A stretch of DNA of 64,000 nucleotides from an uncultured Bacilli bacterium. Lineage in GTDB: Bacteria; Bacillota_I; Bacilli_A; RF39; UBA660. Positions 38,192 to 58,076 of this stretch are shown here, one piece after another. Under the pieces are notes generated by a model. That model was not told the origin of the DNA. It did not search any database and saw nothing but the letters and a program-made list of their open reading frames with translations. Within the stretch, counting starts at the first letter, position 1. Each line of letters starts with the position of its first letter. Where the stretch lies: positions 577-64,576 of the forward strand of contig CALVOP010000002.1 in assembly GCA_944350345.1 (NCBI GenBank), in the 5' to 3' direction. A program made the translations under genes and the position numbers.

Positions 38192-40003
38192 ATGAAACGT
38201 ATTAAGTATTTTTTTGTATTTTTAGTTTTGTTTTTTCCTTTGTCAGTTAATAGTTATACTGAACTGCCTGTTGATTTGACTGATTTATCTATCGTTGATA
38301 TTCAAGATTATGTGGATAAAGGTGTTTTTAGTTATGAAGATTTGGTTCGTGTTTATTTGGACAGGATTCAAGAATATGATGATGAATATAATTCTGTTTT
38401 GAGTTTGAATGAAGAAGCAATTAGTATTGCTAAGGAACTTGATGAGGAAAGGGAAGAAAGTGGTATTCGTAGTTTAGTTCATGGCATTCCTATTATGGTT
38501 AAAGATAATATTGATTATGCCGGTATGGCTACTACTGGTGGGACTAAGGCTTTAAGTGATTCTGTTCCTAAAAGTAATGCGAAGGTTATTTCATATTTGG
38601 TAGATAATGGTGCGATTATTTTGGGTAAGACTAATATGAGTGAACTTGCTTTGAGTGTTCAAAATTCTTATAGTTCGTATGGCTATGTTAGAAATGCTTA
38701 TGATAATAGTTATACTAGTTATGGGTGTAGTGGTGGTTCTGCTGTTAGTACTTCTTTGATGTTTAGTGTTGCTAGTTTGGGCACTGATACTAATTCTTCT
38801 GTTCGTGTTCCTGCTGCTGCTGCGGGGCTTGTCGGTATTAGGCCAACTTTTGGTTCTGTTTCTGGCAATGGCGTGATTAAGTATGATGTAAATCGTGATA
38901 CTGTTGGTGTTTTGGCTAGGAATGTGACTGATAATGCCATTATTTTGGATGTTATAAGTGGTGGAGATGGTAATAAATATTTAGATGATTTAGATAGTTC
39001 TAAACTTACTATTGGTGTTTTGAGTCAAATTGCTGAAGGTGATAGTAGTCTTTATGGTAATGCTTTTAGAGCTACTAATAGTGAGATATTGGATTTGTTT
39101 AATGATAATATTGATTATTTAGAGTCATTGGGCTATAAGATTGTTTATTTGGATGATTTTTTTACTAGAGAAGTAATTGACTATGAAAATGATTCTACTA
39201 GTGGAAAATCTATGTGTAATGAGTTTAATAAGTATATTGTTAATACTAGTAGTAGTATTAAAAGTTTTGGAGAATTAGCTAAATCAACTGGCGGGGTTTA
39301 TAGTTTGTATGATTACGTATATTATTGTGGTATGGATGAGTCGTTTACTGAAGAAAAGTCTTTAATGGAGCTATATAGAAATTATGTAAGTGAATTTATG
39401 GATAAAAATGATATCGATGTTTTGGTTTATCCTAATATTAAATCTAAAACTAGTTTGTATTATGAAAGTGATAATGTTACATCTAGTTATATTATTGCTC
39501 CTGCTACTGGTTTTCCGGCAATTACTTATAATATGGGTTACATAGATGGTTTAGCTTATTCAATGGAGTTTTTAACTACTCTTGGAAATGAACAAATTCT
39601 TTATAATTTGCTTTCTAATTTGAAAAATAATTATGTTCTATCTAGTGAGGCACCTATGCTTTATGAAGTTAGTGATGAAGTTACAGAGTTAGTTAATTAT
39701 TATATGAACGTGAATTTGAAAAGTTTGTATAAATATAATAAGGATGCATTAGAGACGTATAATAATGCTCTTGATAATATTCTTTACTTTTTTGATAATT
39801 ATAATGATGTAGAAGATAAAGAAACAACGGCTATTAATTTATTAAATGATTATAAGGATGCAATCCAAATACTTAAGGAAGCTAAAAGTGAAAGAAATAC
39901 TACTATATTTTTAGTAATTATGTTAATCTTGTTTGTAGTGCTAATTGTACTGTTAAAATCACTTGTTTATTCAGTAAAGAAAAATAAAAGAAACAAACAT
40001 TAA
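38192..40003 (+). CDS. Secreted amidase-signature (AS) family amidase with N-terminal signal peptide and C-terminal TM anchor
   Basis: The signal peptide is MKRIKYFFVFLVLFFPLSVNS. GGTKALSDS...GCSGGSAVSTS is the Ser-cisSer-Lys amidase signature (GGSSGG variant). The C-terminus TIFLVIMLILFVVLIVLL is followed by KKNKRNKH. A terminator follows at about 39975-40017. Confidence 0.7.
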   Translation: MKRIKYFFVFLVLFFPLSVNSYTELPVDLTDLSIVDIQDYVDKGVFSYEDLVRVYLDRIQEYDDEYNSVLSLNEEAISIAKELDEEREESGIRSLVHGIPIMVKDNIDYAGMATTGGTKALSDSVPKSNAKVISYLVDNGAIILGKTNMSELALSVQNSYSSYGYVRNAYDNSYTSYGCSGGSAVSTSLMFSVASLGTDTNSSVRVPAAAAGLVGIRPTFGSVSGNGVIKYDVNRDTVGVLARNVTDNAIILDVISGGDGNKYLDDLDSSKLTIGVLSQIAEGDSSLYGNAFRATNSEILDLFNDNIDYLESLGYKIVYLDDFFTREVIDYENDSTSGKSMCNEFNKYIVNTSSSIKSFGELAKSTGGVYSLYDYVYYCGMDESFTEEKSLMELYRNYVSEFMDKNDIDVLVYPNIKSKTSLYYESDNVTSSYIIAPATGFPAITYNMGYIDGLAYSMEFLTTLGNEQILYNLLSNLKNNYVLSSEAPMLYEVSDEVTELVNYYMNVNLKSLYKYNKDALETYNNALDNILYFFDNYNDVEDKETTAINLLNDYKDAIQILKEAKSERNTTIFLVIMLILFVVLIVLLKSLVYSVKKNKRNKH

Positions 40004-40071
40004 AAAGTGTTTGTTTTTTTAAAGTGTTTATTTATTCTTTTGATAATAATATTATTAGAAAGGATGAGTAA

Positions 40072-42105
40072 ATGAAAGATTTTATTGTTAAACAAAATAG
40101 TTCCTATAGTTGTGCGACTGCTTGTGTGTTGTCTCTCATTAAGTACTATGGTGGAGATATGTCTTATGAAGAGTTGAATGTGATTTTGAATGCTTCTAGA
40201 TATGGAACTAATGCTTATGATATTTTAAATGGTGTTAAATCTATAGGGTTTGTTGGGCGCGGTATTAAATTATCTTTTAATTATTTGACTAGTTATGAGA
40301 TTGTTAATCCTTTAATCGCCCATGTAATTAAAAATAATATGTATCATTTTGTGGTTATTTATAAAATTGATAAAAGAAAAAAATTATTTAGTGTTATGGA
40401 TCCAAGTGAAGGCATGGTTAAAGTTAAATTTGATGTTTTTGAAAAGATGTATTTGTCCACTGTATTGGATATTGTTCCAACCGAGAATGTACCTAATATT
40501 AAAAATGATGCTGTTTTGGTAAGTAAGATTTTTAAGGTTTTAAAGAAGTATAAGATATTAGTTTTTAAAGTTTTGTTTTTATCTTTATTAGTGATAACTT
40601 TTACATTATTTTCTAGTGTTCTGTTAAAACTTTTACTTGAATTAAATAATTTTAAGATTTTATGTTTAATTTTTGTGATAGTTATTTTATTAAAAAATTT
40701 TTGTAATTATTTTTTGGAAAGATATATTATTTTAGTTCAAAATAATGTAGGAGTTTTGCTTTTAAAGGATGTTATTTTTCATATTTTTAAAGTTCCTATA
40801 AAGTATGTTAAAAATAAAAGTACTGGTGATATTTTAGATAGAATTAGGGATTTAGAAGATGTTAAAAATAAGCTGGTGGATGTTTGTTTGAATATATTTG
40901 TGAATGTTTTGTTGTTAGTTTTTATTTTGGTATTTTTATCTTTTATTAATATGAATTTATTCTTAATTTCTATTTTGTTTATCTTTGTTTATTTCGTCTT
41001 TTCTATTTTGTATTATAAATATTTTAAAAGGAAAATTTTTGAAGTTAAAAGTGTTTATGGTACATATGAAAGTTTTGCTAATGATAGTATTTCTAATTAT
41101 GTGAGTATTAAGAATTCGCAGGTTGAAGATATTTATATAACTAAGTTTTTAAATAAATATTATTGTTATTTATATAGACTTAAAAGTTCTTTAGTTAGTC
41201 TTAATGTTTTTGAACTTGTTAAAAATGTTTTAAGTGATTTGTTTTTATTAGTTGTCATTGTATTTTCAGTTTTACTTTTGAATAAAGGTGTTATTAAATT
41301 AAGTGATTTGTTTTTTGTTTATTCTCTTATTCTTAGTATAGTAGATCCGGTTAAAAATATCTTTGATAAGTTTTCTTCTATTGAAGAGGTAAAAGTTTCT
41401 TTGAAACGCGTGAATGATTTGCTTAGGGTTCGTGAAGAAGTTTGTAGTTTAAATAAGATTGACGGACAAATTGTTTTTGAGAATGTTAAGTTAAATTTTA
41501 TTGATAATAATTCTTTGATAAATTTTTCTATTAAAAAAGGGTCGTTGTTTTTACTTTATGGAATTAGTGGTGTTGGTAAGAGTTCTTTACTTAAAATAGT
41601 AACTGGTGAATCTTCAAATTATAAAGGTAATGTATCTGTTGGAGGCGTTAATATTAAAGATTTAGATGAAGGTGTATTGTTAAACTCTGCCTCTTTTGTC
41701 TCTCAAGAAGAAAAACTATTTAATGATACTTTGGAAAATAATATTAAGCTTTATAGAGATGTTAGTGATGATTTTTATGAAAAGATATTAAAAGTTACTC
41801 TTGTCGATAAGATTAGAAATAGTAAAAAGTTTAGAAATGATTTTGTTATTTATGAAGATGGGGTTAACTTAAGTGGAGGAGAAAGGCAAAAAATTATTTT
41901 GGCTCGTGCTTTAATTAAAGACTTTAATTATTTGATTATTGATGAAGGGCTTAGTGAGGTTAATTTGGAAGATGAGAAAGTGATAATTGAAAATATTAGA
42001 AGATGTTTTTCTGATAAAACTATTATTTATGTTTCACATAAAAAAGAAATTAATTGCCTTTTTGAAGAGAAGTATTTTATGAAAGGGGGTGATAGTATTG
42101 ACTGA
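40072..42105 (+). CDS. Bacteriocin-processing ABC transporter with N-terminal C39 (double-glycine) cysteine peptidase domain (SunT/LagD/ComA type)
   Basis: The N-terminus (SSYSCATACVLSLIKYYGG) has the Cys of a C39 papain-like peptidase, with His (NPLIAHVIKNNMYHFVV) and Asp (VMDPSEG) downstream. It has 6 TM helices and an ABC ATPase (GISGVGKSS Walker A, LSGGERQKIILARAL signature, LIIDEG Walker B). Confidence 0.85.
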   Translation: MKDFIVKQNSSYSCATACVLSLIKYYGGDMSYEELNVILNASRYGTNAYDILNGVKSIGFVGRGIKLSFNYLTSYEIVNPLIAHVIKNNMYHFVVIYKIDKRKKLFSVMDPSEGMVKVKFDVFEKMYLSTVLDIVPTENVPNIKNDAVLVSKIFKVLKKYKILVFKVLFLSLLVITFTLFSSVLLKLLLELNNFKILCLIFVIVILLKNFCNYFLERYIILVQNNVGVLLLKDVIFHIFKVPIKYVKNKSTGDILDRIRDLEDVKNKLVDVCLNIFVNVLLLVFILVFLSFINMNLFLISILFIFVYFVFSILYYKYFKRKIFEVKSVYGTYESFANDSISNYVSIKNSQVEDIYITKFLNKYYCYLYRLKSSLVSLNVFELVKNVLSDLFLLVVIVFSVLLLNKGVIKLSDLFFVYSLILSIVDPVKNIFDKFSSIEEVKVSLKRVNDLLRVREEVCSLNKIDGQIVFENVKLNFIDNNSLINFSIKKGSLFLLYGISGVGKSSLLKIVTGESSNYKGNVSVGGVNIKDLDEGVLLNSASFVSQEEKLFNDTLENNIKLYRDVSDDFYEKILKVTLVDKIRNSKKFRNDFVIYEDGVNLSGGERQKIILARALIKDFNYLIIDEGLSEVNLEDEKVIIENIRRCFSDKTIIYVSHKKEINCLFEEKYFMKGGDSID

Positions 42106-42229
42106 TAAAGAACTATATTCCGTTAGTGGTGGCGGGATTGGTTGGGGTATAGCTGGCTTAATAGGCGGGATAATAACTTTTATTATTGGTGTTATTGACG
42201 GTTATATGAGACCATTAAAATGTAATTAG
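42098..42229 (+). CDS. Double-glycine-leader bacteriocin precursor peptide A, 43 aa: (M)TDKELYSVSGG|GIGWGIAGLIGGIITFIIGVIDGYMRPLKCN. It has a TTG start 8 nt after GGGGG and overlaps the transporter stop.
   Basis: The 12-aa leader has GG at -1/-2, V at -4, L at -7, E at -8 and M at -12, which matches the double-glycine leader consensus. The mature 31-aa peptide is rich in GxxxG motifs like class IIb peptides. It is not in the ORF track. Confidence 0.7.
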   Translation: MTDKELYSVSGGGIGWGIAGLIGGIITFIIGVIDGYMRPLKCN

Positions 42230-42244
42230 AAAGGAGGGATTTTG

Positions 42245-42400
42245 TTGAATGATGTTGAGTTAACTAATGTAGTTGGTGGTGCGATAAGTGCGACTTTGGT
42301 TAATGCATTAGTTAGAGGTTTTACGGCTATATTTGAATTTGGAAAGGCTGTTGGAACTGCTATTAGAAGAGCTAAAACAGGAACTATATGTTCTATATAA
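42245..42400 (+). CDS. Double-glycine-leader bacteriocin precursor peptide B, 51 aa: (M)NDVELTNVVGG|AISATLVNALVRGFTAIFEFGKAVGTAIRRAKTGTICSI. It has a TTG start 6 nt after GGAGGG.
   Basis: Its leader has the same register as peptide A (V-4, L-7, E-8, M-12, GG). The mature 39-aa peptide is cationic and amphipathic with a GKAVG motif. A terminator follows immediately. Confidence 0.7.
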   Translation: MNDVELTNVVGGAISATLVNALVRGFTAIFEFGKAVGTAIRRAKTGTICSI

Positions 42401-42423
42401 AGAAGTGAATTCACTTCTTTTTT
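42401..42423 (+). terminator. Rho-independent terminator ending the bacteriocin operon
   Basis: AGAAGTGAATTCACTTCT is a perfect 9-bp palindrome followed by TTTTT. Confidence 0.8.
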
Positions 42424-42651
42424 GATGTAAACTTGTTTGTTAGTTATAAATTACAAAAGTAGTTCAAAGTAATATATGAAATTAGCTAAAATTCTTATAA
42501 AATTAGAAAAACTTTTAAGGTGGTTATTTAGTGAAAATTCTTGATTTTTTTCATTAAATAGAGTATTATTAAGTAGTAAGTTTTTTCTTGGTTTAATGAG
42601 TCCTCGACTTTTTACTAGGAATAAACGGATTATTTATGAAGGAGGGAAATG

Positions 42652-45540: not shown

Positions 45541-47025
45541 TTAAATTACTATTGCAATTAGGTTATTACTTCCTTTGTTTACTATTTTTGTTATAGTTTG
45601 ACAAAGTTTATATCTTAGGCTTTCTGGCATCATTGCAAGTTTTGCCTGAATTCCTTCTTGTACTATTACATCTAGACTTCTTCCAAATATTTCGCTTTTC
45701 CAAATGTTGTTTGGACTTTCTTCTTGATCTTTGAGTAAATAATCAATTAGTTCTTTACTTTGTATTTCACTTCCTATGATAGGTTCAAATGTGCTTTCAA
45801 CATCGACTTTAATCATATGTATACTTGTTGCGATTGCTTTTAGTTTTACTCCGTATCTTCCACCTTGTTTTATTATTTCTGGTTTATCAAGTTTCATATC
45901 ATCTAGTTTTGGAAATGCGATACCATATCCTGTTTGATATACTTGTTTAAGTGCATCTTTAAAGTTGTCGTATTCACTTTTTCCATTTTTAAAGTCTCTA
46001 AATATTTTTAAAAGTTCTGCTTTTGAATCAATACTTGTTCCAACTGTTTCTTTTAATACTTCATCATATAATTCGTTACTTGCTTCTAAGTTAATTGCAA
46101 CTTCACCTGTATTTGTGTTTAAGTTTGATATGTATGAATTACTTATAAAATCATTTTCTTCAAAATTTAAATTTATGTTGTTTATATCTCTTAATTTATT
46201 AACGCTTACAACGCTTTCTTTCATTGCTTTTAAAAATGCTTCTTTTATAGGATGATCATTATCTAAAACTCCAATCCAATCAGGTATGTTTACTTCAATG
46301 TTTTCAACTGGGAATTCGTATAATGCTTCTTTTAAAATCATGTATACTTCGTTTTCAGTCATGTCAAGTACGTTCATTGGTATAACTGGTATGTCATATT
46401 TTTCGTGCATTTCATCACATAAGTTTCTAACGTCTGGTGTGTTTGGATGTGTTGTGTTCATTATTACTATAAATGGTTTGTTTAGGTTTTTTAATTCTGT
46501 TATTACTTTTTCTTCTGCATCAATATAACTTCCTCTTGATATTTCTCCAATAGATCCATCAGTAGTTACTACTATTCCAATAGTAGAGTGGTCTTTTATT
46601 ACTTTTTCTGTTCCGATTTCTGCTGCTTCTGTAAATGGTAAGTCTTCTGTAAACCATGGAGTTTTTACCATTCTAGGATTCCCGTCTTCATCTAAATATC
46701 CTTTGCTTTCTGGCGTTACATATCCAACGCAGTCAATAAGTTTGATGTTGGTTTCAAAGTCGTCAATTTTAATTTTTGCACCATTGGAAGGTACAAATTT
46801 TGGCTCGATTGTCATTATTTGTTTTCCCTGAGCACTTTGAGGGATTTCGTCAAGACATCTTCTTTTTTCAAAATCATCTTCTATATTAGGTATTACTAAA
46901 GTTTCTATGAATTTTTTAATAAATGTGCTTTTCCCAGTTCTAACCGCGCCTACAACACCTAAATATATCTCTCCATTTGATTTTGAACCGATGCTTTCAA
47001 TTATTTCTTTTTTATCCATTTTCAT
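45541..47025 (-). CDS. spoIVA: Stage IV sporulation protein A (SpoIVA, spore coat morphogenetic ATPase)
   Basis: It aligns along its full length with B. subtilis SpoIVA (GEIYLGVVGAVRTGKSTFIKKF...; ...SIHMIKVDVESTFEPIIGSE...EGIQAKL.MMPE..RYKL). It is 494 aa against 492 aa. Confidence 0.9.
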   Translation of the reverse strand: MKMDKKEIIESIGSKSNGEIYLGVVGAVRTGKSTFIKKFIETLVIPNIEDDFEKRRCLDEIPQSAQGKQIMTIEPKFVPSNGAKIKIDDFETNIKLIDCVGYVTPESKGYLDEDGNPRMVKTPWFTEDLPFTEAAEIGTEKVIKDHSTIGIVVTTDGSIGEISRGSYIDAEEKVITELKNLNKPFIVIMNTTHPNTPDVRNLCDEMHEKYDIPVIPMNVLDMTENEVYMILKEALYEFPVENIEVNIPDWIGVLDNDHPIKEAFLKAMKESVVSVNKLRDINNINLNFEENDFISNSYISNLNTNTGEVAINLEASNELYDEVLKETVGTSIDSKAELLKIFRDFKNGKSEYDNFKDALKQVYQTGYGIAFPKLDDMKLDKPEIIKQGGRYGVKLKAIATSIHMIKVDVESTFEPIIGSEIQSKELIDYLLKDQEESPNNIWKSEIFGRSLDVIVQEGIQAKLAMMPESLRYKLCQTITKIVNKGSNNLIAIVI

Positions 47026-47147: not shown

Positions 47148-47867
47148 ATGAAAGAAAATTTAGAAAAAATTAATGAAGTAATGTCTGAAGTGGAAAATAA
47201 AGGCAAGCAAATTTTAATATTTTTGTTGTATTTTATTGGTTTTCTTTTGGGACCATCTTTGTTTTATTCATTAGTTAATGTGGTTTATCCGATTGATGAT
47301 GTGATGATTGCTAATTTGGTTGGAAATGGCTTGTATGCAATTATGTTATTTATTATATTGCATAGGGTTTTGATTGGTGACTTTAAAAAACTTGGTAAAG
47401 ATAAAGTTAATAATATGAAAGTTATGTTTAAGTGGTGGGGTATAGGACTATTAATAATGATGATTAGTAATCTTATTATTAATGGTATTGTTTTTAATGG
47501 CTCGATTGCTGCGAATGAGGAAGCAAATAGGGAACTTATATTAGCTTCACCGTTTTTAAGTATTTTCCTCGCAGTTTTTATTGCCCCTTTTGTTGAAGAG
47601 ATAACTTTTAGATATGGTCTCAGAAAAATATTTAAAAATGTTTGGTTTTATGCAATAGTCAGTGGTTTTATCTTTGGTTTTTTACATGCTATTTCAGGGA
47701 TTGAATCTGCAAAAGATATGTTGGACTTGTTATATATTATTCCTTATGGATCACTTGGTTTTGCTTTTTCTGTTATTTATTATAAAACTGATAATATATG
47801 GGTAAATATTTTTGTTCATACATTACATAATGCAATTGTTTACTCATTATTAATTTTATTTGCATAG
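47148..47867 (+). CDS. CPBP-family intramembrane glutamic endopeptidase (CAAX protease / Abi-type, often bacteriocin self-immunity)
   Basis: Polytopic with the three CPBP motifs: EEITFRYGL (EExxxR), FGFLHA (FxxxH) and HTLHN (HxxxN). Confidence 0.75.
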   Translation: MKENLEKINEVMSEVENKGKQILIFLLYFIGFLLGPSLFYSLVNVVYPIDDVMIANLVGNGLYAIMLFIILHRVLIGDFKKLGKDKVNNMKVMFKWWGIGLLIMMISNLIINGIVFNGSIAANEEANRELILASPFLSIFLAVFIAPFVEEITFRYGLRKIFKNVWFYAIVSGFIFGFLHAISGIESAKDMLDLLYIIPYGSLGFAFSVIYYKTDNIWVNIFVHTLHNAIVYSLLILFA

Positions 47868-56789: not shown

Positions 56790-57263
56790 ATGGAAAATAT
56801 TATAAGAAATGATAGGTATATATTAGATAAAAAAATATTAATTTTTAAAGAAAAGTATATGAAATTTAAAAAACTTAATATTGTTGATGAAATATCTTTG
56901 AGAGAGTGTATATGTGATGTTTTATCTTGGATAGAAATGTGTGTTAAAACTACAAAAGATATGAGTGTAGAAGAAAAAAGGAAAATTAGTGCAATTAGAT
57001 ATGCGAATAATTATAAAAAACACGGTATTAAATTATATAATTTTAATAAAAATGTGTATGGATTATATCCATCAGAAAAATTAGTCCCAAGACCAAATTT
57101 GTGTCCTTCTGATTTTAATATATATTGGAATTTTCTATCTTTTTTAAAAAAATCTGAAAAAACACAATATAATAATTATAGAACTTTTTTAGAAAATAAA
57201 AATATATATGATACAATAATTGACATTTATGAAATTATACAAAAATATTATAAACTAACTTAA
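56790..57263 (+). CDS. Hypothetical protein (157 aa), followed by a terminator at 57269-57290
   Basis: ORF with no known domain. A terminator hairpin AGGAGCAATGCTCCT followed by T7 comes immediately after. Confidence 0.4.
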   Translation: MENIIRNDRYILDKKILIFKEKYMKFKKLNIVDEISLRECICDVLSWIEMCVKTTKDMSVEEKRKISAIRYANNYKKHGIKLYNFNKNVYGLYPSEKLVPRPNLCPSDFNIYWNFLSFLKKSEKTQYNNYRTFLENKNIYDTIIDIYEIIQKYYKLT

Positions 57264-57571
57264 TGTAGGAGCAATGCTCCTTTTTTTGATGAGTAAATAT
57301 CTTTTTTTACTAAACCCAACCCCCAAACTTAATAAAATTGATTTTAAAGGTAGTTCCTGTTAGATTTGATTTGATTAATATATTTATATTAATTCATTAT
57401 AAACTTAACAGAAAACAACCTTAATTTGCTTTAAAATGGGTTGTTTATAATTGAATTATAATTGATAAAATTATTGGCTTTTACTATATAGCACTATTTA
57501 TATAATATATTGCTATTATTTGATTATTTCCTTTATTGCTCTACTAAATAGATAAGGAGAGTGATAAAGAT

Positions 57572-57745
57572 ATGGAATATTATTTCACAACAAAAGAAAT
57601 AAGTTTGTTATTAAAAACGCCAATTCAATTCATTAGAAAAATGATAAGAGAAAAAAGAATTATTGCTTATAAGGTAGGAAGACAATATATTGTTAAGGAA
57701 CAAGATTTAAATAATTATCTTGATAGTGTGAAATATGAAAGATAA
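57572..57745 (+). CDS. Excisionase/HTH_17-type small DNA-binding protein (57 aa): MEYYFTTKEISLLLKTPIQFIRKMIREKRIIAYKVGRQYIVKEQDLNNYLDSVKYER
   Basis: AAGGAGAGTGA RBS. It matches the Xis/HTH_17 winged-helix pattern (T.KE.a.lL.v....i.r.i..g.i.a.kvGr.w.i...dL..yl). It is not in the ORF track and overlaps the next gene by 11 nt. Confidence 0.6.
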   Translation: MEYYFTTKEISLLLKTPIQFIRKMIREKRIIAYKVGRQYIVKEQDLNNYLDSVKYER

Positions 57746-58076
57746 AGATATTTTAAAAATGTTAGGTTTAAATGATAGAACTATTACTTTAACTGCTGAT
57801 GATGAATATTTACAAATAATGCTTGAAAAGAAAATAGATAACTACTTTAAAAAATTAGATGAAGAAAAAAAGAAACAAGAACAAATAGATTATTATAAAA
57901 ATCAATATGAAAAGTTCCAAAAGAAAAATGAGTTTGTTAAAAACTTTGATGATAAGTTTGTTTATGGTAAGTTAAGAGATAAACTTATTAAAGACGGTTT
58001 TGTATATCGTTGTCCTTTTTGTCTTGATGTATCAAGTCAATATGGAAGACCATTACAAAGTTATAACAAACATTAG
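57735..58076 (+). CDS. Hypothetical protein (113 aa) with a C-terminal CPFC motif, overlapping the Xis-like gene
   Basis: ORF in apparent operon with the HTH_17 gene, with a terminator at 58079-58112. Confidence 0.4.
   Translation: MKDKDILKMLGLNDRTITLTADDEYLQIMLEKKIDNYFKKLDEEKKKQEQIDYYKNQYEKFQKKNEFVKNFDDKFVYGKLRDKLIKDGFVYRCPFCLDVSSQYGRPLQSYNKH

What the first reader, a model, noticed from the sequence alone, without database searches (positions are those of the whole stretch)
38192..42424. Unannotated two-peptide double-glycine-leader bacteriocin locus (amidase, C39-ABC exporter and two tandem precursor peptides)
Two short ORFs sit immediately downstream of the C39-peptidase/ABC transporter gene and overlap it. 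Both are below the ORF-track size cut-off. Each has a strong RBS, a TTG start, and a 12-residue leader ending in GG with hydrophobic residues at -4 and -7, Glu at -8 and Met at -12: (M)TDKELYSVSGG and (M)NDVELTNVVGG. This is the exact register recognised by C39 double-glycine peptidases. The predicted mature peptides are 31 aa (GIGWGIAGLIGGIITFIIGVIDGYMRPLKCN, rich in GxxxG) and 39 aa (AISATLVNALVRGFTAIFEFGKAVGTAIRRAKTGTICSI, cationic, with GKAVG). That is the hallmark of class IIb two-peptide bacteriocins, whose helices pack via GxxxG. Each mature peptide carries a single Cys, so an intermolecular disulfide is conceivable. A perfect terminator closes the operon. No HlyD-like accessory protein, immunity gene or regulatory two-component system is nearby, which is atypical. 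A secreted, C-terminally membrane-anchored amidase-signature enzyme lies directly upstream, separated by its own terminator.
Basis: partly seen in the sequence, partly recalled or inferred. Interest (0 to 1): 0.75.

Follow-up and report, generated by a model that had tools for sequence, protein, structure and literature searches.

The report
Conserved two-peptide bacteriocin-like export cassette
The two tiny genes are real: they encode a hydrophobic and a cationic peptide with cleavable export leaders, sit behind their dedicated cutter/exporter, and recur as the same pair in about a hundred uncultured gut bacteria, so this is most likely an untested two-peptide bacteriocin of a known general type with some unusual features.

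Summary
A C39-peptidase ABC exporter (40072-42105) is followed by two small genes. PepA (42098-42229) overlaps the exporter's stop codon, and pepB is at 42245-42400. Both have strong ribosome-binding sites, TTG starts and 12-residue double-glycine leaders, and a terminator at 42399-42420 closes the unit.

They are genuine genes. All 99 related loci with complete sequence carry pepA followed by pepB, even where the exporter is only 26% identical. Mature-peptide dN/dS is 0.03-0.10.

PepA passes NCBI's model for class IIb bacteriocins. PepB belongs to a family of about 500 clusters that has no annotation. The exporter keeps the catalytic Cys, His and Asp.

So the class IIb reading is supported, but activity is untested. 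The amidase is a neighbour only within one genus-level clade.

Several features are unusual:
- Each peptide has one invariant Cys near its C-terminus (85 of 85 unique pairs).
- The cassette sits among housekeeping genes.
- There is no immunity gene in the operon.
- The window's clade lacks a ~140-aa membrane protein that 58 related loci carry between the exporter gene and pepA.

Verdict: a new variant of a known kind, of moderate interest.

The parts
40018..40047 (+). Promoter-like site for the exporter-pepA-pepB unit (TTTAAA, 18 nt spacer, GATAAT)
   Evidence: Consensus scan. The -10 GATAAT and the sequence downstream to the ATG are invariant in five relatives whose exporters are 58-100% identical. 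Function is inferred.
40072..42105 (+). Peptidase-containing ABC transporter (PCAT): N-terminal C39 cysteine peptidase, transmembrane domain and nucleotide-binding domain
   Evidence: Pfam PF03412, PF00664 and PF00005. NCBIfam bacteriocin-export models are the best matches but fall below their equivalog cut-offs. The best solved homologues are ComA and PCAT1, E about 1e-58, and Cys14 aligns with ComA Cys17. Cys14, His92 and the Walker/signature residues are invariant and Asp110 is nearly invariant across relatives down to 33% identity.
42081..42091 (+). Shine-Dalgarno sequence of pepA (GAAAGGGGGTG), inside the 3' end of the exporter gene
   Evidence: Read directly from the sequence. It is conserved in relatives while the start codon varies: TTG, ATA, ACG or ATG.
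42098..42229 (+). PepA precursor (43 aa): 12-residue double-glycine leader (42098-42133) and a 31-aa hydrophobic mature peptide, GIGWGIAGLIGGIITFIIGVIDGYMRPLKCN
   Evidence: NCBIfam TIGR03949 scores 26.3 bits against a cut-off of 21.5. Homologue present in 100 of 100 loci. The motif G-x3-G-x3-P-x2-C is found in 85 of 85 unique pairs. Mature dN/dS is 0.05-0.09. The AF2 model is one helix, mean pLDDT 81. Mean hydrophobicity is about 0.9 over the first 18 residues.
42230..42238 (+). Shine-Dalgarno sequence of pepB (AAAGGAGGG)
   Evidence: Read directly from the sequence. Conserved in relatives.
42245..42400 (+). PepB precursor (51 aa): 12-residue double-glycine leader (42245-42280) and a 39-aa amphipathic mature peptide of net charge +4, AISATLVNALVRGFTAIFEFGKAVGTAIRRAKTGTICSI
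   Evidence: No curated family matches. The homologous peptide family has 512 clusters at 90% identity and 490 representatives at 50% identity, all nameless. It follows pepA in 99 of 99 complete loci. G33xxxG37, R42 and C49 are invariant in alignment A5. Mature dN/dS is 0.03-0.10. The AF2 model is a helix over residues 16-45, mean pLDDT 74. The hydrophobic moment is 0.5-0.58.
42399..42424 (+). Intrinsic terminator that closes the operon (9-bp stem, 4-nt loop, T-run)
   Evidence: Terminator scan. An equivalent hairpin follows pepB in L082, L088, L002 and L085.
38192..40003 (+). Neighbouring gene, not part of the conserved module: a secreted, C-terminally anchored amidase-signature enzyme closest to peptide amidase Pam
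   Evidence: Pfam PF01425, 240 bits. The best solved homologues are peptide amidases 5ac3 and 1m21, and the catalytic-motif blocks KDNI, GxSxGSAV and GTxTxxS all align. It lies upstream of the exporter only in relatives with at least 58% exporter identity and is absent from the other roughly 80 loci.
39991..40020 (+). AT-rich hairpin plus T-run overlapping the amidase stop codon; probable terminator separating the amidase from the cassette
   Evidence: Sequence: AAACAAACA, 8-nt loop, TGTTTGTTT, then TTTT. It is conserved, with compensatory substitutions in L085. The GC-dependent scan did not detect it.
42437..42520 (+). Probable 3' remnant of a 113-aa single-pass membrane-protein gene that is intact directly after pepB in some conspecific strains
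   Evidence: L096 and L097 carry the full gene. The DNA alignment shows the window and L094 retain only the last ~30 codons. tblastn gives 62% identity over 29 aa, E = 0.1. This is weak evidence.

Best explanation
The window carries a self-contained three-gene operon: promoter near 40018-40047, exporter, pepA, pepB, terminator at 42399-42420. It makes and secretes a pair of unmodified peptides.

Proposed mechanism:
1. PepA is translationally coupled to the exporter gene, and pepB follows 15 nt later.
2. Each precursor carries a 12-residue double-glycine leader, with Met at -12, Glu at -8, Leu at -7, Val at -4 and GG at -2/-1.
3. The N-terminal C39 cysteine peptidase of the ABC transporter recognises the leader and cleaves after GG.
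4. The transmembrane and ATPase domains export the mature peptides.
5. Outside the cell, a 31-aa transmembrane-like helix (pepA) and a 39-aa cationic amphipathic helix (pepB) associate through their invariant GxxxG motifs.
6. They may also be joined by a disulfide between the single invariant C-terminal Cys of each.
7. The complex acts on membranes of competing bacteria, as class IIb two-peptide bacteriocins do.

Shown here: the genes, leaders, catalytic residues, obligate pairing, purifying selection and family membership of pepA.
Inferred: cleavage and export by this transporter, heterodimer formation, the disulfide and antibacterial activity.
For: - The ORFs, ribosome-binding sites, leaders and terminator are in the sequence. 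Only these two ORFs in 64 kb fit the leader pattern, against 0.0-0.04 in shuffles.
- The exporter is a PCAT with an intact C39 domain. Cys14 aligns with ComA Cys17, and the HFVV and DP motifs align.
- PepA exceeds the TIGR03949 cut-off. Of 24 family members, 21 match that model at E below 0.01. Public records name the homologues class IIb bacteriocins.
- PepA followed by pepB is found in 99 of 99 complete loci of this exporter subfamily.
- Three natural pepA-pepB fusion ORFs keep the internal second leader.
- Mature-peptide dN/dS is 0.03-0.10. The mature peptides are 84-95% identical where the exporter is only 58-68% identical.
- GxxxG is invariant in both peptides and one Cys is invariant in each.
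- Both are predicted helical. PepA is hydrophobic; pepB is amphipathic with net charge +4.
- These features match the published definition of class IIb (PMC2850506).
Against: - There is no immunity gene in the operon, although one is "always" present in characterised class IIb operons (PMC2850506).
- The window has no accessory protein.
- No peptide-pheromone type regulator was found within about 12 kb.
- The leader has 12 residues, against the usual 15-30.
- The cassette sits in housekeeping context at a conserved chromosomal position in many species: yqeY lies within 1.5 kb downstream in 35 of 73 loci. It has no match on plasmids or phages. This looks more like a vertically inherited core trait than a typical accessory bacteriocin.
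- The pepA hit to TIGR03949 covers mainly the leader and the Gly-rich N-terminus.
- PepB matches no known bacteriocin family.
- No activity data exist, and no paper holding these sequences was found.
Confidence: 0.65

Rival explanations
1. The pair is a lineage-wide secreted factor with a role other than killing. Examples would be a cell-surface or membrane-associated heterodimer acting on the producer itself (envelope, sporulation or cell-cell signalling), or on the host. In this view it is exported by the same route as a bacteriocin but is not a weapon.
For: - The cassette is present in every related locus examined (99 of 99).
- It often lies at the same housekeeping position between rsmD and rpsU-yqeY, in species whose exporters share only about 26-35% identity with the window's.
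- No immunity gene is present in the four-gene core, and the cassette has no match on plasmids or phages.
- The mature peptides are more conserved than their exporter.
- PepA is essentially a transmembrane helix that could anchor pepB.
Against: - No cognate sensor is linked. The nearest histidine kinase is a generic HisKA type 6.6 kb away on the other strand and is not syntenic elsewhere.
- Peptide length, GxxxG, cationic amphipathicity and the HMM hit all fit pore-forming class IIb peptides.
- Some bacteriocin families are also widely conserved. This rests on my own knowledge and was not tested.
Confidence: 0.2
2. PepA and pepB are two independent one-peptide bacteriocins that merely share an exporter, as in multi-bacteriocin loci. 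They would not be a complementary class IIb pair.
For: - Their mature regions are unrelated. Profile-profile similarity stops a few residues after the leader.
- Many PCAT loci export several independent peptides. This rests on my own knowledge.
Against: - Order and pairing are strict in 99 of 99 loci.
- Natural fusions of the two exist.
- A single invariant Cys is matched in each peptide.
- No locus has only one of them apart from L005, which is cut by a contig end.
Confidence: 0.08
3. The upstream amidase is a functional component of the system, for example a producer-protecting or peptide-modifying enzyme, as the title of the finding implies.
For: - Amidase-exporter adjacency is kept in relatives down to 58% exporter identity.
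- Its closest solved homologue is a peptide amidase.
- It is predicted to be extracytoplasmic and membrane-tethered.
Against: - It is absent from all of the roughly 80 more distant loci that keep the exporter-pepA-pepB module.
- It is separated from the cassette by a conserved hairpin and a conserved promoter.
- The peptides contain no obvious amide target.
Confidence: 0.05

Closest known systems
Class IIb (two-peptide) bacteriocins such as lactococcin G, plantaricin EF/JK, lactacin F and ABP-118
   Same: - Two different small peptide genes lie next to each other in one operon.
- The leaders are of the double-glycine type.
- A dedicated C39-ABC exporter is present.
- Both peptides contain GxxxG.
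- The mature peptides are helical, hydrophobic or cationic, and 30-40 aa long.
(PMC2850506.)
   Different: - No immunity gene is present in the operon.
- The leader has 12 residues rather than 15-30.
- The window has no accessory protein.
- PepB has no detectable relative among curated bacteriocin models.
- Each peptide has one invariant C-terminal Cys. As far as I recall, this is not a feature of characterised class IIb pairs, and a search for 'class IIb' with 'intermolecular disulfide' found no paper.
- The cassette has a chromosomal, housekeeping-embedded and lineage-wide distribution.
NCBIfam TIGR03949, class IIb bacteriocin, lactobin A/cerein 7B family
   Same: PepA scores 26.3 bits against a cut-off of 21.5. 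Of 24 pepA-family members, 21 match at E below 0.01. NCBI and JGI already give homologues this name.
   Different: The match covers the leader and the Gly-rich N-terminus (profile positions 4-36). The conserved C-terminal F-x-IGVIDG-x2-RP-x-KC module is specific to this subfamily. PepB does not belong to the family.
Peptidase-containing ABC transporters (PCATs): ComA of Streptococcus pneumoniae (PDB 8hf4) and PCAT1 of Clostridium thermocellum (PDB 4ry2)
   Same: The three-domain architecture is the same. The Cys/His/Asp catalytic residues, Walker A, signature motif and H-loop are retained. E is about 1e-58 over the full length.
   Different: Sequence identity is low. All curated equivalog models score below their cut-offs; the best is TIGR03796 at 248 bits against 853. 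The window's subclade works without the small membrane protein that follows the exporter gene in 58 related loci.
Gram-positive bacteriocin accessory proteins (LcnD/ComB, HlyD-like)
   Same: In 58 related loci a single-pass membrane protein gene directly follows the exporter gene. This is the position accessory genes occupy (PMC2850506).
   Different: That protein is only about 140 aa, has no Pfam match and is absent from the window. Whether it is an accessory protein, an immunity protein or something else is unknown.

Membership tests
Class IIb two-peptide bacteriocin (definition in PMC2850506) | [quoted passage not shown] | tested here: met
   PepA at 42098-42229 and pepB at 42245-42400 are 15 nt apart, with one promoter-like site and one terminator. 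The order is conserved in 99 of 99 loci.
Class IIb two-peptide bacteriocin (definition in PMC2850506) | [quoted passage not shown] | tested here: inconclusive
   The leader motif is present and GG is invariant. However, the leader has 12 residues here (12-16 in relatives), and cleavage itself cannot be tested with these tools.
Class IIb two-peptide bacteriocin (definition in PMC2850506) | Dedicated ABC transporter with a leader peptidase | tested here: met
   An adjacent PCAT has an intact C39 catalytic triad.
Class IIb two-peptide bacteriocin (definition in PMC2850506) | GxxxG (or GxxxG-like) motif in both peptides, and helical structure | tested here: met
   G31xxxG35 in pepA and G33xxxG37 in pepB are invariant or nearly so (85 of 85 and 83 of 85). 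AF2 models are helical.
Class IIb two-peptide bacteriocin (definition in PMC2850506) | Immunity gene in the same operon | tested here: not met
   No ORF lies between pepB and the terminator, and rpsO follows. The conserved core in relatives has no immunity-like gene apart from the unexplained ~140-aa protein, which is absent here. A CPBP/Abi-type gene lies 4.7 kb away but is not syntenic.
Class IIb two-peptide bacteriocin (definition in PMC2850506) | [quoted passage not shown] | not testable with these tools
   This needs synthesis and bioassay. The only indirect support is obligate co-occurrence and natural fusions.
NCBIfam TIGR03949 (lactobin A/cerein 7B family) | Whole-protein score at or above the curated cut-off (21.5 bits) | tested here: met
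   PepA scores 26.3 bits, E = 4.7e-6. PepB has no hit, so only one of the two peptides is a member.
Peptidase-containing ABC transporter (PCAT; ComA/PCAT1 type) | N-terminal C39 domain with catalytic Cys and His (not a Cys-less C39-like domain), plus the ABC exporter core | tested here: met
   PF03412 at 80.6 bits, PF00664 and PF00005. Cys14 aligns with ComA Cys17. His92 in HFVV aligns with ComA HYYV, and Asp110 in DP aligns with ComA DP. Conserved in A1.
Peptide-pheromone quorum-sensing module (ComC/BlpC/PlnA type) | Adjacent cognate histidine kinase and response regulator | tested here: not met
   Genes from about 27.6 to 55.5 kb were scanned. The only kinase is a HisKA/HATPase_c protein at 49015-50235 on the opposite strand, and no response regulator was detected. 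None is linked in the related loci.
Amidase signature family (the neighbouring gene) | PF01425 domain with the Lys / cis-Ser / Ser catalytic motifs | tested here: met
   240.6 bits. The KDNI, GCSGGSAV and GTDTNSS blocks align with the corresponding blocks of peptide amidase 5ac3. Assigning the catalytic residues within those blocks rests on my knowledge of the family.

The most novel reading that the evidence does not exclude
The two peptides form a covalent, disulfide-bridged heterodimer through their single invariant C-terminal cysteines. A transmembrane-like chain is tied to a cationic amphipathic chain. The heterodimer is made from a vertically inherited, immunity-less core cassette shared by a whole group of uncultured, small-genome gut Bacilli (MAGs labelled Mollicutes, Tenericutes or Mycoplasmatota incertae sedis). 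This would be either the first disulfide-linked two-chain class II bacteriocin or a conserved secreted membrane factor that is not a bacteriocin at all.
Probability: 0.25. Interest if true: 0.65.

Novelty: new variant of a known kind. Interest (0 to 1): 0.45.

Why it matters
If the pair is active, it defines a large and so far uncharacterised bacteriocin family. At 50% identity there are about 500 clusters of pepB alone. The producers are uncultured gut Bacilli for which almost no ecology or physiology is known.

The family offers three concrete handles:
- an invariant GxxxG pair;
- one invariant cysteine per chain;
- natural A-B fusions.
These can be used to test how two-peptide bacteriocins assemble.

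The apparent absence of an immunity gene in a conserved, chromosomal, lineage-wide cassette bears on a general question: how do producers of membrane-active peptides protect themselves? It also raises whether some 'bacteriocin' cassettes serve another purpose.

For annotation, pepB-type partners are currently labelled hypothetical. PepA is usually missed in this species because it overlaps the exporter gene and starts with TTG.

Tried and rejected
- Chance ORFs: rejected by the pattern scan against shuffles, by conservation and by dN/dS.
- Cys-less C39-like domain: rejected.
- Accessory gene hidden elsewhere in the window: an HMM built from 55 intervening ~140-aa proteins found nothing in the six-frame translation of the 64 kb.
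- The 113-aa protein of L096/L097 as a diverged copy of that accessory family: no significant HMM match and no Pfam match.
- CPBP/Abi gene (47148-47867) as the immunity gene: outside the window it is near the cassette only in L070, so there is no conserved linkage.
- Thioredoxin-like CGWC ORF (50675-51295) as a linked disulfide catalyst: only a weak Redoxin hit (E = 0.05), and linked in only one other locus.
- PepA and pepB as paralogues: similarity is confined to the leader.
- Plasmid or phage carriage: no tblastn hit. Note that BLAST's low-complexity filter is on.
- Literature: no paper contains the peptide motifs. No paper combines class IIb with an intermolecular disulfide. Searches for Mbov_0121 and for RF39/Mollicutes with bacteriocin gave nothing relevant. 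The gut class II bacteriocin mining paper PMC12648112 has no supplements held, so I could not check whether this family is in its lists.
- P0401, the top hit of the pepB profile search, is a 2076-aa Lys-rich repeat protein and is a repeat-driven artefact.
- Monomer AF2 models give only single helices and say nothing about the heterodimer.

Full report
**What is in the sequence.**
Region 38192-42424 holds, all on the + strand:
- a 603-aa amidase gene (38192-40003);
- a 677-aa ABC transporter gene (40072-42105);
- two small ORFs.

PepA starts with TTG at 42098, 8 nt before the transporter's stop codon, behind the ribosome-binding site GAAAGGGGGTG. It encodes MTDKELYSVSGG|GIGWGIAGLIGGIITFIIGVIDGYMRPLKCN.

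PepB starts with TTG at 42245, behind AAAGGAGGG. It encodes MNDVELTNVVGG|AISATLVNALVRGFTAIFEFGKAVGTAIRRAKTGTICSI.

A hairpin with a 9-bp stem and a T-run follows at 42399-42420.

I scanned all six frames of the 64-kb window for short ORFs with a strong ribosome-binding site and the leader pattern E-[LIVMF]-x2-[LIVMF]-x-GG. Only these two were found. One hundred shuffles gave 0.0 hits, or 0.04 without the ribosome-binding-site requirement.

**The exporter.**
Pfam finds Peptidase_C39, ABC_membrane and ABC_tran. The best NCBIfam models are bacteriocin cleavage/export transporters, all below their equivalog cut-offs.

Against solved structures the best matches are ComA of S. pneumoniae and PCAT1, at E about 1e-58 over the full length. 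In that alignment:
- Cys14 falls on ComA Cys17;
- His92 (HFVV) falls on ComA HYYV;
- Asp110 (DP) falls on ComA DP.

From memory, these are ComA's catalytic Cys17, His96 and Asp112.

In an alignment of ten relatives down to 33% identity, Cys14, His92, Walker A, the LSGGE signature and the H-loop are invariant. Gln8 and Asp110 are nearly invariant. It is a true peptidase-containing ABC transporter, not a Cys-less C39-like variant.

**The peptides are real genes and an obligate pair.**
A scan of GTDB species-representative genomes with the exporter alignment returned 80 loci. All are from uncultured gut MAGs. They are labelled Bacilli, Mollicutes, Tenericutes, Erysipelotrichaceae or, probably by mis-binning, Muribaculaceae. 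One named relative, Candidatus Pelethosoma, is filed by NCBI under Mycoplasmatota incertae sedis.

With further contigs fetched by exact protein look-up, I searched 100 sources (99 fetched loci plus the window itself) with HMMs of the two peptide families:
- 99 have a pepA-type ORF followed by a pepB-type ORF just downstream of the exporter.
- The hundredth, L005, is cut by the contig end inside pepA.

This holds where the exporter is only 26-30% identical to the window's.

Between the window and relatives whose exporters are 58-96% identical:
- mature pepA has dN/dS of 0.05-0.09;
- mature pepB has dN/dS of 0.03-0.10;
- synonymous differences reach 0.27-0.63 per site.

The mature peptides stay 84-95% identical where the exporter has dropped to 58-68%.

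The ribosome-binding site and the register of the pepA start are conserved while the start codon itself varies: TTG, ATA, ACG or ATG.

Three database entries are single ORFs that fuse pepA and pepB and retain the internal second leader. This is a Rosetta-stone type indication that the two act together.

**What kind of peptides.**
PepA scores 26.3 bits on NCBIfam TIGR03949 (class IIb bacteriocin, lactobin A/cerein 7B family), above the curated 21.5. Of 24 diverse family members, 21 match it at E below 0.01. NCBI and JGI already give that name to homologues. The match covers the leader and the Gly-rich N-terminus.

PepB matches no curated family. Its relatives number:
- 512 clusters at 90% identity;
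- 490 representatives at 50% identity among 1.84 billion proteins.

They carry no Pfam domain and no name beyond 'hypothetical protein'.

The two mature regions are unrelated to each other.

Across 85 unique mature pairs:
- pepA always has G-x3-G-x3-P-x2-C;
- pepB has its GxxxG-type motif in 83 of 85;
- a Cys near the C-terminus is invariant in both;
- 81 of 85 pepA and 80 of 85 pepB have exactly one Cys.

PepA is a transmembrane-like helix with mean hydrophobicity about 0.9. PepB is amphipathic, with a hydrophobic moment of 0.5-0.58 and net charge +4. AF2 monomer models are single helices with mean pLDDT of 81 and 74.

These features match the published definition of class IIb bacteriocins in four respects (PMC2850506): adjacent genes, double-glycine leaders, a dedicated ABC transporter, and GxxxG-mediated helix-helix pairing.

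**Where it departs from the textbook.**
1. The review states that the immunity gene is always in the same operon. Here nothing lies between pepB and the terminator, and rpsO-pnp follow.

2. In 58 related loci a ~140-aa single-pass membrane protein with no Pfam match is encoded between the exporter gene and pepA, the usual place of an accessory gene. It is absent from the whole window and from the window's subclade, where pepA abuts the exporter.

3. The leader has 12 residues, with the initiator Met at the -12 hydrophobic position.

4. The cassette is embedded among housekeeping genes. In many species it lies between rsmD and rpsU-yqeY, and yqeY is within 1.5 kb downstream in 35 of 73 loci. 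In the window's clade it lies between two M16 peptidase genes plus the amidase on one side and rpsO-pnp on the other.

5. Neither peptide has a match in plasmid or phage collections.

This pattern suggests vertical inheritance of a chromosomal trait across a broad group, which is unusual for bacteriocin loci in my experience.

**The amidase and other neighbours.**
The amidase is an amidase-signature enzyme whose closest solved homologues are peptide amidases (5ac3, 1m21). The catalytic-motif blocks align. Its sequence has a signal-like N-terminus and a C-terminal hydrophobic anchor.

It precedes the exporter only in relatives with at least 58% exporter identity. It is absent from all other loci.

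It is separated from the cassette by a conserved AT-rich hairpin overlapping its stop codon, which shows compensatory changes in L085. A conserved promoter-like element with an invariant GATAAT follows. I therefore treat the amidase as a neighbour, not a component.

Further downstream:
- a CPBP/Rce1-like protein at 47148-47867. Abi-type proteins are known bacteriocin immunity factors, a point I give from my own knowledge;
- a histidine kinase at 49015-50235 on the opposite strand;
- a membrane-anchored CGWC thioredoxin-like ORF at 50675-51295 on the opposite strand.

None of these is syntenic with the cassette elsewhere.

Two conspecific contigs carry a 113-aa single-pass membrane protein directly after pepB. 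The window seems to retain only its last ~30 codons, at 42437-42520. If that protein were the immunity factor, its loss in strains that keep intact peptide genes would be hard to explain.

**Mechanism and rivals.**
Best explanation (0.65): one transcript from the promoter at about 40018-40047 yields the exporter and both precursors. The C39 domain cleaves after GG during export. The hydrophobic pepA and the cationic pepB then assemble through their GxxxG faces, possibly locked by a Cys-Cys bridge, and permeabilise target membranes.

Only the gene-level facts are shown. Cleavage, assembly, the disulfide and killing are inferred.

Rivals:
- Main rival (0.2): the same export machinery delivers a conserved heterodimer with a non-antagonistic role. 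This is suggested by the core-like distribution and the missing immunity gene.
- Independent one-peptide bacteriocins (0.08): this fits poorly with the strict pairing and the fusions.
- A functional role for the amidase (0.05): this fits poorly with its narrow distribution.

**Novelty and score.**
The kind of system is known: a PCAT with two double-glycine peptides. One partner is already auto-annotated as a class IIb bacteriocin in public records.

What appears new:
- pepB as a defined and obligate partner family;
- one invariant Cys per chain;
- the immunity-less, housekeeping-embedded, lineage-wide cassette;
- the small membrane protein that most relatives have and this clade has lost.

No paper in the searchable library contains these sequences.

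I rate it a new variant of a known kind, interest 0.45. The most novel reading not excluded is a disulfide-linked two-chain peptide from a core cassette. I give it a probability of about 0.25, and it would deserve about 0.65 if true.

Noticed in passing
Related loci, e.g. L016:8066-8524 and L032:8000-8458; absent from the window: A family of ~140-aa single-pass membrane proteins with no Pfam match is encoded between the exporter gene and pepA in 58 related loci. The window's subclade lacks it. It could be a miniature accessory protein or an immunity protein.
   Followed up: partly
Database proteins P0438 (102 aa), P0444 (101 aa) and P0509 (103 aa): Single ORFs fuse a pepA-type and a pepB-type peptide and keep a second internal double-glycine leader. 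P0438 and P0444 were read directly. P0509 is inferred from its length and its two matched stretches.
   Followed up: partly
window 42437-42520; L096:3253-3597; L097:3253-3594: Some conspecific strains carry a 113-aa membrane-protein gene directly after pepB, and in L096 also a DAO/Rieske gene. The window appears to keep only a short 3' remnant of the 113-aa gene.
   Followed up: partly
window 47148-47867 and 47860-48768: A CPBP/Rce1-like (Abi-type) intramembrane protease gene overlaps a metallophosphoesterase gene. The same pair occurs near the cassette only in L070.
   Followed up: partly
window 50675-51295 (-): A 206-aa ORF has an N-terminal membrane anchor and a CGWC motif, and looks like an extracytoplasmic thioredoxin. 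The Redoxin hit is only E = 0.05. If real, it shows the organism could make extracellular disulfides.
   Followed up: partly
window 51641-53191 (-) and about 54000-58000: A large serine recombinase gene lies next to a stretch of very low GC (0.19-0.21) whose ORFs have no Pfam match. This may be an integrated element.
   Followed up: no
window 45541-47025 (-): A full-length SpoIVA (all three Pfam domains) is present, so this lineage is probably a spore-former, even though its MAG relatives are labelled Mollicutes, Tenericutes or Mycoplasmatota incertae sedis. Relatives also have yabP/yqfC-like and yqfD-like genes after yqeY, judged by eye from the cluster sequences.
   Followed up: no
L085:7033, L088:2352 and L089:2903, compared with window 42098: The pepA start position is conserved behind an invariant ribosome-binding site, but the codon there is TTG, ATA, ACG or ATG in different relatives. 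This suggests tolerated non-canonical initiation coupled to termination of the exporter gene.
   Followed up: partly
L013:8200-8379: This locus has a third peptide gene between pepA and pepB. It is pepB-like with a double-glycine leader but has no cysteine.
   Followed up: no
Record titles of L003, L004, L016, L034, L035, L050-L052, L069 and L071: Several MAGs carrying this low-GC Bacilli-type cassette are titled 'uncultured Muribaculaceae bacterium'. This is probably a taxonomic mislabel or a binning error in the source records.
   Followed up: no
Database protein P0401 (2076 aa): The top hit of the pepB profile search is a Lys-rich protein with 16 tandem repeats that bears no real resemblance to pepB. 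It is a repeat-driven false positive.
   Followed up: yes
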